NCBI GenBank assembly: GCA_030603365.1
Contig: JAUVXV010000004.1
Coordinates: 261,569 to 293,568, forward strand
DNA: 32,000 nt
Source: Candidatus Heimdallarchaeota archaeon
GTDB taxonomy: Archaea > Asgardarchaeota > Heimdallarchaeia > Heimdallarchaeales > Heimdallarchaeaceae
Direction of reading: 5' to 3'
Part shown: in pieces, positions 9,167 to 9,346 of the stretch
Layout: each line of letters starts with the position of its first letter
Position numbering within the stretch: position 1 is the stretch's first letter
Notes under the pieces: model-generated
What the model saw: the letters and a program-made list of their open reading frames with translations, nothing else
Told to the model about the DNA's origin: nothing
Databases searched by the model: none
Made by a program: the position numbers and the translations under genes

Positions 9167-9346
9167 CCTAGTAAGGATTTCAGGTTCGGAATGGGTCTGA
9201 GTGTTACCCCCTCACTATGGCCGCGACGTATCGCAGCGAATGGCTGTTCCCAAGTGATCTCTCAACTTAGTACAGAGCCACACGTCGAAGGGCTTAACTA
9301 TCCCGAACATCTGGAATGCCTCCAGATGCTTTCTGACCTTACTAGG
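9167..9346 (-). rRNA. 5S rRNA gene, circularly permuted (3' half, UACG cap, 5' half), with extra leader/trailer helix and hairpin
   Basis: The reverse complement contains every 5S element, in permuted order:
- GUUAAGCCCUUC (loop B and helix II 3' strand)
- GUGGCU...CUGUACU AAGU UGAGAGAUC ACUU GGGAAC AGCCAU (helix V, loop E, helix IV)
- GCUGCGA-UACG-UCGCGGC (helix I closed as a hairpin)
- CAUAGU GAGGGG GUAACAC UCAG ACCCAUUCCGAAC CUGA (loop A, helix II 5' strand, helix III, loop C)
The GC-rich island stands out against the AT-rich background. ORF track entry 9191..9376 is spurious. Confidence 0.8.

What the first reader, a model, noticed from the sequence alone, without database searches (positions are those of the whole stretch)
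9167..9346. Circularly permuted 5S rRNA gene with native termini capped by a UACG tetraloop
**What the sequence shows.** On the minus strand the locus reads: CCUAGUAAGG UCAG AAA G CAUCUGGA GGCAU UCCAGAUG UUCGGGAUA | GUUAAGCCCUUC GAC GUGUGGCU CUGUACU AAGU UGAGAGAUC ACUU GGGAAC AGCCAUUC GCUGCGA UACG UCGCGGC CAUAGU GAGGGG GUAACAC UCAG ACCCAUUCCGAAC CUGA | AAU CCUUACUAGG UUUUUU.

Every universal 5S element is present, about 117 nt in total:
- loop A CAUAG
- helix II GAGGGG/CCCUUC
- helix III UCAG/CUGA enclosing the 13-nt loop C with CCGAAC
- GUUAAGCC
- GUACU...GGGAAC loop E
- helix IV AAGU/ACUU
- helix V GUGGCU/AGCCAU

**Why it is unusual.** The half that normally lies 3' (from GUUAAGCC onward) is encoded before the normal 5' half. 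The two helix I strands are joined directly by 4 nt, forming a 7-bp stem with a UNCG-type UACG loop (loop at 9227-9230). The new discontinuity falls exactly between CUGAA and GUUAAG, on the 3' side of loop B.

**Context.** Permuted 5S rRNAs have been described for some organelle genomes. I am not aware of a description in archaea, though I cannot search the literature here.
Basis: partly seen in the sequence, partly recalled or inferred. Interest (0 to 1): 0.9.

Follow-up and report, generated by a model that had tools for sequence, protein, structure and literature searches.

The report
Circularly permuted archaeal 5S rRNA gene
This Asgard (Heimdall-group) archaeon encodes its 5S ribosomal RNA with the two halves in swapped order, flanked by a splicing signal that should cut the transcript out and join its ends into a closed ring. 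This would explain why 5S genes seemed to be missing from these genomes.

Summary

**The gene.** Window 9299..9179 (minus strand) is a complete 5S rRNA with its halves swapped:
- Rfam RF00001 positions 51-115 lie at 9299..9233.
- Positions 5-50 lie downstream at 9224..9179.
- A 7-bp helix I closed by a UACG loop (9230-9227) joins them.
- In native order the locus scores only 22 bits (threshold 38); the two halves sum to 53 bits.

**Conservation.**
- The same arrangement is present in 44 loci: Heimdall-, Njord-, Jord- and Baldr-labelled Asgard assemblies.
- These include two copies in each of the two closed Heimdallarchaeum genomes, whose authors could not find a 5S gene.
- Covariation is strong: 95.5% of cells are paired and 28 of 33 pairs show compensatory changes.

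**New here.**
- Leader and trailer form a bulge-helix-bulge (BHB) splicing-endonuclease motif that uses the 3' strand of helix III.
- Cutting and ligating rejoins model positions 50 and 51 exactly.
- The predicted product is a covalently closed circular 5S rRNA of 121 nt.
- In this window that may take two steps: a 153-nt circle, then removal of a 32-nt hairpin.

Circularity is inferred; no RNA data were available. I found no prior description in the searchable literature.

The parts
9369..9389 (-). Putative BRE/TATA promoter element CCAATAGTAAAGATTAAAAAA, about 22-42 nt upstream of the processing stem
   Evidence: The motif is conserved in nearly all hairpin-type loci. A TATA-like box lies 25-30 nt upstream of the stem in every lineage. 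Its function is inferred.
9337..9347 (-). P1, 5' strand of the leader-trailer processing stem (GCCUAGUAAGG)
   Evidence: Pairs with 9176-9166 in the MFE fold. Across 27 hairpin-type homologues 97.3% of cells are paired and 10 of 11 pairs show compensatory changes.
9333..9336 (-). H(1): UCAG, the central 4-bp helix of the outer BHB, pairing with CUGA 9183-9180
   Evidence: NCAG is kept in 27 of 27 homologues even where the P1 sequence differs.
9330..9332 (-). B5(1): 3-nt bulge AAA of the outer BHB. Predicted cut between 9331 and 9330.
   Evidence: The consensus is ANA across homologues. The cut position follows the established BHB rule and is inferred.
9306..9329 (-). P2 hairpin (stem 9328-9321 / 9315-9308, loop GGCAU). 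Together with 9305-9300 and A9178 it forms the 32 nt that interrupt the 5S core after the first ligation.
   Evidence: 95.4% of cells are paired and 3 pairs show compensatory changes in 27 homologues. It is absent from direct-type genes.
9302..9305 (-). H5(2): CGGG, the central helix of the inner BHB, pairing with CCUG 9184-9181
   Evidence: 100% paired in 27 of 27 homologues, with C[A/G]GG always matching CCUG. Across lineages it covaries with the helix III 3' strand: CGUG/CACG, CCGG/CCGG, CGAG/CUCG, CAAG/CUUG.
9299..9301 (-). B5(2): 3-nt bulge AUA (AAA in 26 of 27 relatives). Predicted cut between 9300 and 9299.
9231..9299 (-). 5S rRNA 3' half, encoded first: loop B 3' side (AGUUAAG), helix II 3' strand, helix V, loop E, helix IV with its GAGA loop, helix I 3' strand
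   Evidence: RF00001 model positions 51-115, 25.1 bits. Covariation.
9227..9230 (-). Cap: UACG tetraloop joining the native 3' and 5' ends of helix I (9237-9231 with 9226-9220)
   Evidence: In homologues the loop is UACG, UGCG, UUCG, CUCG, CACG, GUAA, GUUA, ACUC, CUUUG or UAUG, and helix I is 7-12 bp. Cap helix: 98.9% of cells paired and 6 of 7 pairs compensatory.
9179..9226 (-). 5S rRNA 5' half, encoded second: helix I 5' strand, loop A CAUAG, helix II 5' strand, loop B, helix III (9200-9197 with 9183-9180), loop C with CCGAAC (9189-9184)
   Evidence: RF00001 model positions 5-50, 28.1 bits. Helix III is 100% paired with 4 of 4 pairs compensatory.
9177..9180 (-). 3'-strand bulges. B3(1) is AAU 9179-9177, cut between 9178 and 9177. 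B3(2) is AAA 9180-9178, cut between 9179 and 9178.
9166..9176 (-). P1, 3' strand of the processing stem (CCUUACUAGGU)
9161..9166 (-). Oligo-U tract, likely archaeal transcription terminator
   Evidence: T-rich tracts follow P1 in most hairpin-type and several other homologues. Function is inferred.

Best explanation
The locus is the functional 5S rRNA gene of a Heimdallarchaeaceae (Asgard) archaeon, encoded in circularly permuted order.

**Proposed pathway.**
1. A transcript of about 190 nt runs from its own TATA-box promoter to an oligo-U terminator.
2. Leader and trailer pair into an 11-bp stem (P1).
3. Next to it the leader sequence UCAG, a copy of the helix III 5' strand, pairs with the helix III 3' strand CUGA. 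This helix lies between two 3-nt bulges, giving a canonical bulge-helix-bulge (BHB) motif.
4. The archaeal tRNA/rRNA splicing endonuclease (EndA) cuts both bulges, and the RtcB ligase joins the ends of the excised piece.
5. Because the native 5' and 3' ends are already closed by a tetraloop, the product is a covalently closed circle with no free ends.

**In this window.**
- The first circle is 153 nt (9330..9178).
- The ligation brings a 10-bp hairpin next to a second BHB (CGGG/CCUG, bulges AUA and AAA).
- Cutting there would remove 32 nt as an intron and leave a 121-nt circle (9299..9179).
- Its junction, ...CCUGAA-AGUUAAGCC..., is the canonical loop B, joining Rfam model positions 50 and 51.

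**Shown:** the permutation, the 5S fold, its conservation and covariation, the BHB geometry and its conservation, and the fact that ligation restores canonical connectivity.

**Inferred:** cleavage by EndA, ligation, persistence of the circle in ribosomes, and the second step.
For: **1. It is a 5S rRNA in swapped order.**
- The two halves match RF00001 positions 5-50 and 51-115 in reversed genomic order.
- Native order gives 22 bits, below the threshold of 38.

**2. The fold is supported by covariation.**
- RNAalifold on 37 homologues independently finds helices I (capped), II, III, IV and V, with 23 of 28 pairs compensatory.
- With the 5S structure written in permuted order, 92.7% of cells pair (MAFFT alignment) and 95.5% pair (structure-fitted alignment).
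- The slid controls give 28-46%, and 0 of 500 shuffles reach the observed values.

**3. It is real and conserved.**
- There are 44 loci scoring 96-151 bits with the permuted model.
- The 8 bacterial pattern hits score nothing.
- Synteny with tRNA-Ser and HypE/HypF holds in six loci.
- The closed genomes CP084166 and CP084167 carry two copies each.

**4. No canonical 5S is known in the closed relatives.**
- Their authors report that 5S genes could not be predicted (PMC8813620).
- A scan of 241 million metagenome records for the canonical-order junction found only bacterial-type 5S genes.

**5. The BHB is present in the fold and in nearly every lineage.**
- It is present in the MFE fold.
- A BHB-like motif is found in every lineage examined, next to processing stems of unrelated sequence, 4-16 bp long. 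In some lineages the central helix has only 3 of 4 standard pairs (see evidence against).
- Shuffled flanks reach the observed stem length in 0 to 47 of 2000 trials for direct-type genes and 0 to 2 of 500 for hairpin-type genes.
- P1 has 10 of 11 pairs compensatory, and the leader tetranucleotide covaries with helix III.

**6. Ligation restores canonical sequence.**
- In all 11 direct-type genes it yields helix III 3' strand, two loop nucleotides (AA, or AU in L023 and L050), then GUYAAGC. This is a 121-131-nt circle.
- In the window the inner-BHB junction joins A9179 to A9299, exactly Rfam positions 50 and 51.

**7. Folding of the predicted circles.**
- The 153-nt circle's MFE shows hairpin, AAA, CGGG/CCUG, AUA, then GUUA/UAAC.
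- The 121-nt circle's MFE is a textbook 5S.

**8. Precedents.**
- Circular 16S and 23S transcripts are reported in Asgard archaea, and circular 23S within archaeal ribosomes (PMC12918454).
- E. coli ribosomes work with a 5S whose native ends are joined by a 4-nt connector (PMC7283268).
Against: - No RNA data exist for any of these organisms in the tools. Cleavage, ligation and circularity are inferred.
- The inner helix (h') of the BHB is weak or absent in the linear precursors, so the motif is of the relaxed hBH type.
- The first pair of H(1) is a mismatch in 6 of 27 hairpin-type genes. In the Njord-type genes and L047, H has 3 Watson-Crick pairs plus a G.A.
- The second step is less secure. 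Only 12 of 27 predicted first circles show the inner BHB in their MFE. In some relatives two mismatches separate the hairpin from the bulge.
- Only 32 kb of this genome was available, so a canonical 5S elsewhere in it is not excluded directly.
- EndA and RtcB were not looked for in this genome.
- Published work states that archaeal 5S, unlike 16S and 23S, is not processed through circularisation (PMC12918454). Known 5S circles in Sulfolobus and Halobacterium are minor forms interpreted as degradation products (PMC12558985).
Confidence: 0.68

Rival explanations
1. **Linear permuted 5S.** The precursor is cut at the BHB, or trimmed by other nucleases, but the ends are not ligated or the circle is re-opened at the same place. 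The ribosome then holds a linear 5S with a capped helix I and its ends in loop B, as in brown-algal mitochondria where the final RNA is permuted.
For: - Organelle permuted 5S rRNAs are linear in their final form (PMC4267664).
- Circular 16S and 23S intermediates are classically re-linearised.
- All loop B nucleotides would still be present in a nicked molecule, so conservation of the junction sequence does not discriminate.
Against: - By established knowledge, EndA products (2',3'-cyclic phosphate and 5'-OH) are the natural RtcB substrates and are ligated efficiently in archaea (tRNA exons, intron circles, pre-rRNA circles).
- Circular rRNA transcripts are documented in Asgard archaea.
- No signal for a re-opening nuclease is apparent.
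- In hairpin-type genes the inner BHB becomes canonical only after ligation.
Confidence: 0.2
2. **Un-permuting.** As with permuted tRNA genes, the circle is only an intermediate. It is opened at the cap so that the mature RNA is an ordinary linear 5S with free helix I ends.
For: This is the pathway of permuted tRNA genes in Cyanidioschyzon merolae (cited in PMC4267664) and, from memory, in Thermofilum pendens.
Against: - The linker is a tetraloop in all but one lineage (a 5-nt loop, CUUUG, in L023). Most are of the stable UNCG or GNRA classes (UACG, UGCG, UUCG, CUCG, CACG, GUAA), alongside GUUA, ACUC and UAUG, on a covarying helix of 7-12 bp.
- This points to selection for a stable closed hairpin and offers no room for RNase P/Z-like recognition.
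- A capped helix I is compatible with a working ribosome.
Confidence: 0.06
3. **Sub-question for this window's clade.** The 32-nt hairpin is not removed. The mature RNA is the 153-nt circle, or a linear form, with an expansion segment in loop B.
For: - The hairpin is conserved and covaries.
- Only 12 of 27 first circles show the inner BHB in the MFE.
- Asgard rRNAs are known for large expansion segments (Penev 2020, cited).
Against: - The leader tetranucleotide C[A/G]GG and the AAA bulge next to GUUAAG are kept in 27 of 27 and 26 of 27 genes and always pair with CCUG. An expansion segment would not need this.
- Heimdallarchaeum genomes hold one gene of each type with nearly identical cores. 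A common 121-nt product is therefore more parsimonious than two kinds of ribosome.
- The inner-BHB ligation reproduces Rfam positions 50/51 exactly.
Confidence: 0.3
4. **Artefact or pseudogene.** The locus is a misassembled join of two tandem 5S copies or a decaying rearranged copy, with the real 5S elsewhere.
For: Only 32 kb of the genome was seen, and the standard model fails to call the locus.
Against: - Identical architecture occurs in 44 loci from many independent short- and long-read assemblies, including closed genomes.
- Compensatory changes occur in every helix, including the cap and the processing stem.
- Promoter and terminator are conserved.
- No 5S was found otherwise in the closed relatives.
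Confidence: 0.01

Closest known systems
Circularly permuted tRNA genes processed through a BHB and a circular intermediate (Cyanidioschyzon merolae; from memory also Thermofilum pendens)
   Same: - The 3' half is encoded upstream of the 5' half.
- Leader and trailer form a bulge-helix-bulge motif.
- Endonuclease cleavage plus ligation restores the natural connectivity at the break.
   Different: - The RNA is a 5S rRNA, not a tRNA.
- The linker between the native ends is a 4-nt stable tetraloop, not a spacer removed by RNase P and tRNase Z. The circle is therefore expected to persist rather than be re-opened.
- The BHB central helix is built from a leader copy of the helix III 5' strand, which competes with mature helix III.
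Archaeal circular pre-16S/pre-23S rRNAs made at BHB motifs in processing stems; circular 23S in mature ribosomes; RNA-level permuted 23S of Pyrococcus and Thermococcus (PMC12918454, PMC7758197)
   Same: A leader-trailer processing stem carries a BHB. The EndA/RtcB route gives a circular rRNA. Asgard archaea are reported to make circular 16S and 23S.
   Different: - Those genes are collinear with the mature RNA, and circularisation is dispensable for connectivity.
- Here the gene itself is permuted, so ligation is the only way to restore loop B.
- 5S was explicitly regarded as not using this route.
Permuted mitochondrial 5S rRNA of brown algae and other stramenopiles (Rfam mtPerm-5S; PMC4267664)
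   Same: A 5S rRNA in which helix I is closed as a hairpin and the termini lie elsewhere. Standard 5S models miss it.
   Different: - It is organellar.
- The ends lie at the junction of the alpha and gamma domains (loop A), not in loop B between helices III and II.
- The final RNA is linear and permuted.
- There is no BHB, no ligation, and no sequence relationship beyond being 5S.
Engineered cp5S rRNA in E. coli (PMC7283268)
   Same: The native 5S ends are joined by a 4-nt connector, and the ribosome remains functional and structurally normal at the 5S site.
   Different: It is artificial. It is opened in loop C or D and grafted into 23S rRNA, and it is not circular.
Minor circular 5S species in Sulfolobus and Halobacterium (PMC12558985, citing Danan 2012)
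   Same: Covalently closed RNA derived from 5S rRNA in archaea.
   Different: These come from canonical genes, have heterogeneous junctions and no BHB, and are interpreted as degradation intermediates.

Membership tests
5S rRNA (Rfam RF00001) | Three-way junction with helices I-V | tested here: met
   - RNAalifold recovers all five helices.
- 95.5% of cells are paired and 28 of 33 pairs are compensatory.
- Slid controls give 28-46%.
5S rRNA (Rfam RF00001) | Conserved loop motifs: loop A CAUAG, loop C ...CCGAAC, loop B AGUUAAGC, archaeal/eukaryal loop E GUACU...GGGAA | tested here: met
   All are present in the window and invariant or nearly so in 37 homologues.
5S rRNA (Rfam RF00001) | Collinear 5'-to-3' order with open helix I termini, reaching the curated gathering score | tested here: not met
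   - Native order gives 22.0 bits against a gathering score of 38.
- Model positions 51-115 lie upstream of positions 5-50.
- Helix I is closed by a tetraloop.
5S rRNA (Rfam RF00001) | Component of the large ribosomal subunit | not testable with these tools
   This needs rRNA from purified ribosomes or a structure. Indirect support: no other 5S was found in the closed relatives.
BHB-processed permuted RNA genes (permuted tRNA type) | The 3' part is encoded before the 5' part in one transcript | tested here: met
   with a single promoter and terminator flanking the unit.
BHB-processed permuted RNA genes (permuted tRNA type) | Leader and trailer form a helix, 3-nt bulge, 4-bp helix, 3-nt bulge motif at the break | tested here: met
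   -.
- The stem covaries.
- Chance rates are 0 to 47 of 2000 (direct-type genes) and 0 to 2 of 500 (hairpin-type genes).
- The motif is of the relaxed hBH type, and in some lineages H has 3 of 4 standard pairs.
BHB-processed permuted RNA genes (permuted tRNA type) | Circular RNA intermediate formed by EndA cleavage and ligation | not testable with these tools
   - No RNA data were available.
- A metagenome scan for the ligated junction found no RNA-derived contig.
BHB-processed permuted RNA genes (permuted tRNA type) | The linker between the native ends is removed to give a linear mature RNA | tested here: inconclusive
   The linker is a conserved stable tetraloop on a covarying helix. This argues against removal, but end mapping is needed.
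Organellar permuted 5S (mtPerm-5S) | Helix I replaced by a terminal hairpin, with the RNA ends at the alpha/gamma junction (loop A); linear product | tested here: not met
   - The break is between model positions 50 and 51, in loop B.
- No 5S-clan family outscored RF00001 in the E-value scan.
- The family definition is taken from PMC4267664.
Archaeal BHB-dependent rRNA circularisation (16S/23S type) | Processing stem of leader and trailer containing a BHB adjacent to the mature ends | tested here: met
Archaeal BHB-dependent rRNA circularisation (16S/23S type) | The gene is collinear with the mature rRNA | tested here: not met
   The gene is permuted.

The most novel reading that the evidence does not exclude
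Several deep Asgard lineages build their ribosomes with a covalently closed circular 5S rRNA. These include Heimdallarchaeaceae, a family of the class (Heimdallarchaeia) that holds the closest known archaeal relatives of eukaryotes, and Njord-, Jord- and Baldr-type archaea. The RNA is made from a permuted gene by the tRNA-splicing endonuclease and ligase. Splicing would therefore be obligatory for a universal ribosomal RNA. In one clade it would proceed as a two-step cascade in which the first ligation assembles the second splice site. The shared break point suggests a single ancient origin, perhaps from a tandem duplication of a 5S gene carrying a BHB intron in loop B.
Probability: 0.55. Interest if true: 0.93.

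Novelty: new variant of a known kind. Interest (0 to 1): 0.88.

Why it matters
1. **It resolves a concrete puzzle.** 5S rRNA genes 'could not be predicted' in the closed Heimdallarchaeum genomes. Standard tools (Rfam/Infernal at gathering score, and by extension HMM-based callers) miss them. This affects annotation and the MIMAG 'high-quality' criterion, which requires a 5S.
2. **It appears to be a first.** It would be the first genomically permuted rRNA gene in a cellular (non-organellar) genome, and the first case where BHB splicing is needed to restore the connectivity of a ribosomal RNA.
3. **It makes a sharp, cheap prediction.** The 5S should be RNase R-resistant and 121 nt long, with a defined junction. 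Existing Asgard enrichment cultures and metatranscriptomes can test this.
4. **It widens the known substrate range** of the archaeal splicing endonuclease and ligase, and adds 5S to the growing list of circular rRNAs.
5. **It bears on eukaryote origins.** The trait occurs in Heimdallarchaeia, the Asgard class from which eukaryotes are inferred to descend. This raises the question of what 5S state the archaeal ancestor of eukaryotes had.
6. **It is a practical resource.** The permuted covariance model built here can be used to annotate these genes.

Tried and rejected
- **Literal re-permutation test.** I scanned the two halves separately instead.
- **Assembly artefact or pseudogene.** Rejected on conservation, covariation and presence in closed genomes.
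- **Bacterial pattern hits.** Eight bacterial loci (L024, L028, L032, L035, L037, L044, L046, L052) are chance matches. They have no 5S features and no hit with the permuted model.
- **Hodarchaeota, Kariarchaeaceae and another Heimdall-labelled MAG.** I tried to learn their 5S state through HypE-anchored loci L053-L055. Synteny is not kept there, and the loci hold neither a canonical nor a permuted 5S. The state in Loki, Thor, Odin, Hod, Gerd and Kari lineages stays open.
- **Metagenome scan for the ligated or canonical-order junction** (CATTCCGAACCTGA N1-4 GTTAAG). It found only 11 bacterial-type 5S genes. One Rfam call on those loci failed internally.
- **Strict first BHB scan** (H with 4 of 4 pairs, no mismatch in P1). 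It missed Njord-type, GCAG-type and L018 genes. A relaxed scan recovered them.
- **The sigma-70 promoter/terminator scanner** was not used because it does not apply to archaea.
- **Literature searches** for a prior description found none. The library lacks most subscription-journal papers.
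Full report
**1.

The UACG loop is at 9230-9227, closed by the 7-bp stem 9237-9231 / 9226-9220.

A gathering-threshold Rfam scan of the whole 32-kb window finds only a tRNA-Ser(GCU) at 9476-9557 and no 5S. With permissive thresholds RF00001 reaches 22.0 bits (gathering score 38) over 9351..9228. Only the part from AGUUAAGC onward is aligned convincingly.

I then gave Infernal each half alone, so that its truncated-hit mode could work:
- 9224..9179 matches model positions 5-50 (28.1 bits, E 9e-5, cut at the 3' side).
- 9299..9233 matches model positions 51-115 (25.1 bits, E 8e-4, cut at the 5' side).

The two pieces abut at model position 50/51, but the 3' piece lies upstream of the 5' piece in the DNA. 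They sum to 53 bits, without credit for the helix I and II pairs that span the pieces. The literal test on a re-joined sequence cannot be run here.

**2. Organism and context.**

- HypE (10332-11360) is 100% identical to a protein from a 345-kb NCBI contig and 71% identical to Ca. Heimdallarchaeum aukensis and Ca. H. endolithica. All close hits are Heimdallarchaeaceae, Asgard archaea.
- The neighbourhood is GyrA, GyrB, a MiaB-like enzyme, YccF, flavodoxin, the 5S locus, tRNA-Ser, HypE, HypF, then membrane-bound hydrogenase genes.
- This neighbourhood is syntenic in relatives.
- All six syntenic loci carry the same permuted arrangement, with substitutions that keep the pairs. Helix II changes from GAGGGG/CCCUUC to GGCAGG/CCUGCC. 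Helix IV changes from AAGU/ACUU to GAGU/ACUC. The cap loop is UACG, UGCG or UUCG.

**3. Distribution.**

I scanned one genome for each of 185,579 species with a pattern that can match only if loop E, the cap, loop A and loop C are contiguous: GTACT N17 GGGAA N18-48 CCATAG N18-32 CCGAAC. It gave 46 loci.

- Thirty-eight are permuted 5S genes. The remaining eight are bacterial chance matches with no 5S features.
- By record title, the 38 come from many 'Heimdallarchaeota' MAGs (including AB_125), Ca. Jordarchaeia, Ca. Baldrarchaeota, Ca. Njordarchaeota, 'Promethearchaeati' and several unclassified archaea. One carries a 'Thorarchaeota' label and one a 'Thermoproteota' label; their sequences are Heimdall-like and Jord-like respectively.
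- The two closed Heimdallarchaeum chromosomes each have two copies.
- No genome labelled Loki, Odin, Hod, Gerd, Kari or Hermod matched. Their state was not determined (searches found no 5S of either kind near HypE in three such MAGs).

**4. It folds as a 5S.**

- On a MAFFT alignment of 37 distinct sequences, RNAalifold predicts helices II, V, IV, the capped helix I and III without guidance. Twenty-three of 28 pairs show double changes.
- Counting the textbook 5S structure written in permuted order gives 92.7% paired cells, 25 of 33 pairs with compensatory change, and 0 of 500 shuffles as high. Slid controls give 30-46%.
- A covariance model of the permuted form finds 44 loci at 96-151 bits, including the window at 147 bits (9306..9175). 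It finds nothing in the bacterial loci.
- On the structure-fitted alignment 95.5% of cells pair. The cap helix reaches 98.9% with 6 of 7 pairs compensatory, and helix III reaches 100%.
- The cap is a tetraloop in all but one lineage (a 5-nt loop, CUUUG, in L023). Most are of the stable UNCG or GNRA classes (UACG, UGCG, UUCG, CUCG, CACG, GUAA); GUUA, ACUC and UAUG also occur. It sits on a helix I of 7 to 12 bp.

**5. The flanks form a splicing motif.**

The MFE fold of the precursor (z = -4.3) shows, in order:
- an 11-bp leader-trailer stem (9347-9337 with 9176-9166);
- a 3-nt bulge AAU (9179-9177) on the 3' strand;
- a 4-bp helix UCAG (9336-9333) with CUGA (9183-9180);
- a 3-nt bulge AAA (9332-9330) on the 5' strand.

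This is the bulge-helix-bulge geometry recognised by the archaeal splicing endonuclease (established knowledge). The central helix borrows the 3' strand of helix III; the leader carries a decoy copy of the 5' strand.

A systematic scan finds two architectures.

*Direct type* (11 distinct genes: Heimdallarchaeum copy 1, Jord, Baldr, Njord-type, L012, L023, L047, L050):
- A single BHB abuts the core.
- The processing stems are 4 to 16 bp and unrelated in sequence.
- The leader tetranucleotide covaries with helix III: CAGG/CCUG, CGUG/CACG, CCGG/CCGG, CGAG/CUCG, CAAG/CUUG.
- Cutting symmetrically and ligating always gives helix III 3' strand, two loop nucleotides (AA, or AU in L023 and L050), then GUYAAGC. 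This is the canonical loop B, or canonical length in those two genes, in a circle of 121-131 nt.

*Hairpin type* (27 distinct genes, including the window and Heimdallarchaeum copy 2):
- The strong BHB lies about 31 nt further upstream.
- A covarying 8-bp hairpin sits between it and the core.

Shuffling the flanks reaches the observed stem length in 0 to 47 of 2000 trials (direct type) and 0 to 2 of 500 (hairpin type). In the hairpin type, P1 is 97.3% paired with 10 of 11 pairs compensatory. NCAG is kept in all 27 genes. The hairpin is 95.4% paired.

**6. Predicted maturation of the window's gene (inferred).**

- Cutting between the second and third bulge nucleotides releases 9330..9178. This rule comes from the canonical tRNA intron geometry and is recalled from memory. 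The product does not depend on it as long as the cuts are symmetric.
- Ligation gives a 153-nt circle.
- In that circle A9330-U9306 and G9329.U9307 extend the hairpin to 10 bp. This places it directly against a second BHB: bulge A9180-A9178, helix CCUG (9184-9181) with CGGG (9305-9302), bulge AUA (9301-9299), then GUUA/UAAC.
- The MFE of the circular 153-mer is this conformation.
- Cutting there removes 32 nt and joins A9179 to A9299, which are precisely Rfam positions 50 and 51.
- The resulting 121-nt circle folds as a textbook 5S with a capped helix I.

The second step is less certain:
- The inner helix C[A/G]GG/CCUG is paired in 27 of 27 genes and the bulge is AAA in 26 of 27.
- However, only 12 of 27 predicted first circles show the motif in their MFE, and some relatives have mismatches next to it.
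- The coexistence in one genome of a direct-type and a hairpin-type gene with nearly identical cores favours a common 121-nt product.

**7. Expression signals.**

Every lineage has a TATA-like box about 25-30 nt upstream of the processing stem. In the window's clade this is the conserved CCAATAGTAAAGATTAAAAA at 9389-9369. T-rich tracts follow the stem in most hairpin-type and several other loci. These are independent transcription units.

**8. Literature.**

- Eight full-text searches found no description of a permuted or BHB-processed 5S gene in archaea.
[quoted passage not shown] The permutation explains this.
- A 2026 study says archaeal 16S and 23S 'but not 5S' are processed through circularisation. 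It reports circular 16S and 23S transcripts in Asgard archaea and circular 23S inside ribosomes (PMC12918454).
- Minor 5S circles in Sulfolobus and Halobacterium are viewed as degradation products (PMC12558985).
- Brown-algal mitochondrial 5S is permuted, but at loop A, and it is linear and has no BHB (PMC4267664).
- E. coli tolerates a 5S whose native ends are joined by four nucleotides (PMC7283268).
- The library lacks most subscription journals, so a prior report cannot be excluded.

**9. Canonical-order copies.**

A scan of 241 million metagenome records for the canonical-order (or ligated) junction CATTCCGAACCTGA N1-4 GTTAAG returned only 11 bacterial-type 5S genes. No canonical-order relative of this family, and no RNA-derived contig, was seen.

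**10. Verdict.**

| Claim | My estimate |
|---|---|
| The locus is a functional, circularly permuted 5S rRNA gene | about 0.95 |
| It is excised at a BHB by the splicing endonuclease | about 0.85 |
| The mature RNA is a covalently closed circle | about 0.6-0.7 |
| In this clade a second splicing step removes the 32-nt hairpin | about 0.5 |

It works like a permuted tRNA gene and like archaeal pre-rRNA circularisation. It is a member of neither class as defined, and it fails the collinearity criterion of the standard 5S family while meeting all structural ones.

I rate it a new variant of known kinds, of high interest. It concerns a universal ribosomal RNA. It spans several Asgard lineages, including a family of the class that holds the closest archaeal relatives of eukaryotes. 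It resolves a published annotation gap. It makes a sharp prediction that existing cultures and RNA data can test.

Noticed in passing
window 9476-9560 (+): tRNA-Ser(GCU), transcribed divergently from the permuted 5S. The two genes are neighbours in L001, L006, L002 and L004 as well, so they may share a bidirectional promoter region (TTTAAATATTTCGAAT at about 9434-9419).
   Followed up: partly
window 9369-9389 (minus strand): The motif CCAATAG(T/C)AAAGATTAAAAA is conserved upstream of nearly all hairpin-type 5S genes. It is probably the BRE/TATA promoter and could serve as a search handle for other stable-RNA genes in this family.
   Followed up: partly
L020/L040 (CP084166) and L031/L026 (CP084167): Each closed Heimdallarchaeum genome has two permuted 5S genes of different architecture. 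One has a single BHB abutting the core. The other has the displaced BHB plus a hairpin, as in the window. Their cores are nearly identical.
   Followed up: partly
L018 2846-2935 (-): The cap loop is UAUG instead of UNCG, and the processing stem has a mismatch at its second pair. This is the most deviant member of the hairpin type.
   Followed up: no
L021, L025, L034 (Njord-type) and L047: The central BHB helix has three Watson-Crick pairs plus a conserved G.A at the inner end. Helix I is extended to about 12 bp in the three Njord-type genes (L021, L025, L034) but stays at 8 bp in L047. This may reflect a different endonuclease specificity or thermophily.
   Followed up: no
window 178-4819 (-); L002 1-2983: DNA gyrase A and B genes sit next to the locus. 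In H. aukensis GyrA carries an intein with a LAGLIDADG domain, which the window's GyrA (832 aa) lacks.
   Followed up: no
window 10332-19506 (+): HypE and HypF are followed by NADH-dehydrogenase/Mrp-like membrane subunits, a maturation plus membrane-bound hydrogenase cluster. The arrangement is syntenic across Heimdallarchaeaceae.
   Followed up: no
window 8528-8932 (-): A 134-aa ORF of low-complexity composition overlaps YccF and flavodoxin on the opposite strand. It is probably not a gene.
   Followed up: no
window 9662-10210 (-): A 182-aa predicted secreted or membrane-anchored protein with no Pfam match lies between tRNA-Ser and HypE. In L001 a VIT1-domain gene sits at that place instead.
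   Followed up: no
L054 7623-7941 (+): Archaeal RNase P RNA (137 bits) in a Kariarchaeaceae contig, next to ESCRT and Hyp genes.
   Followed up: no
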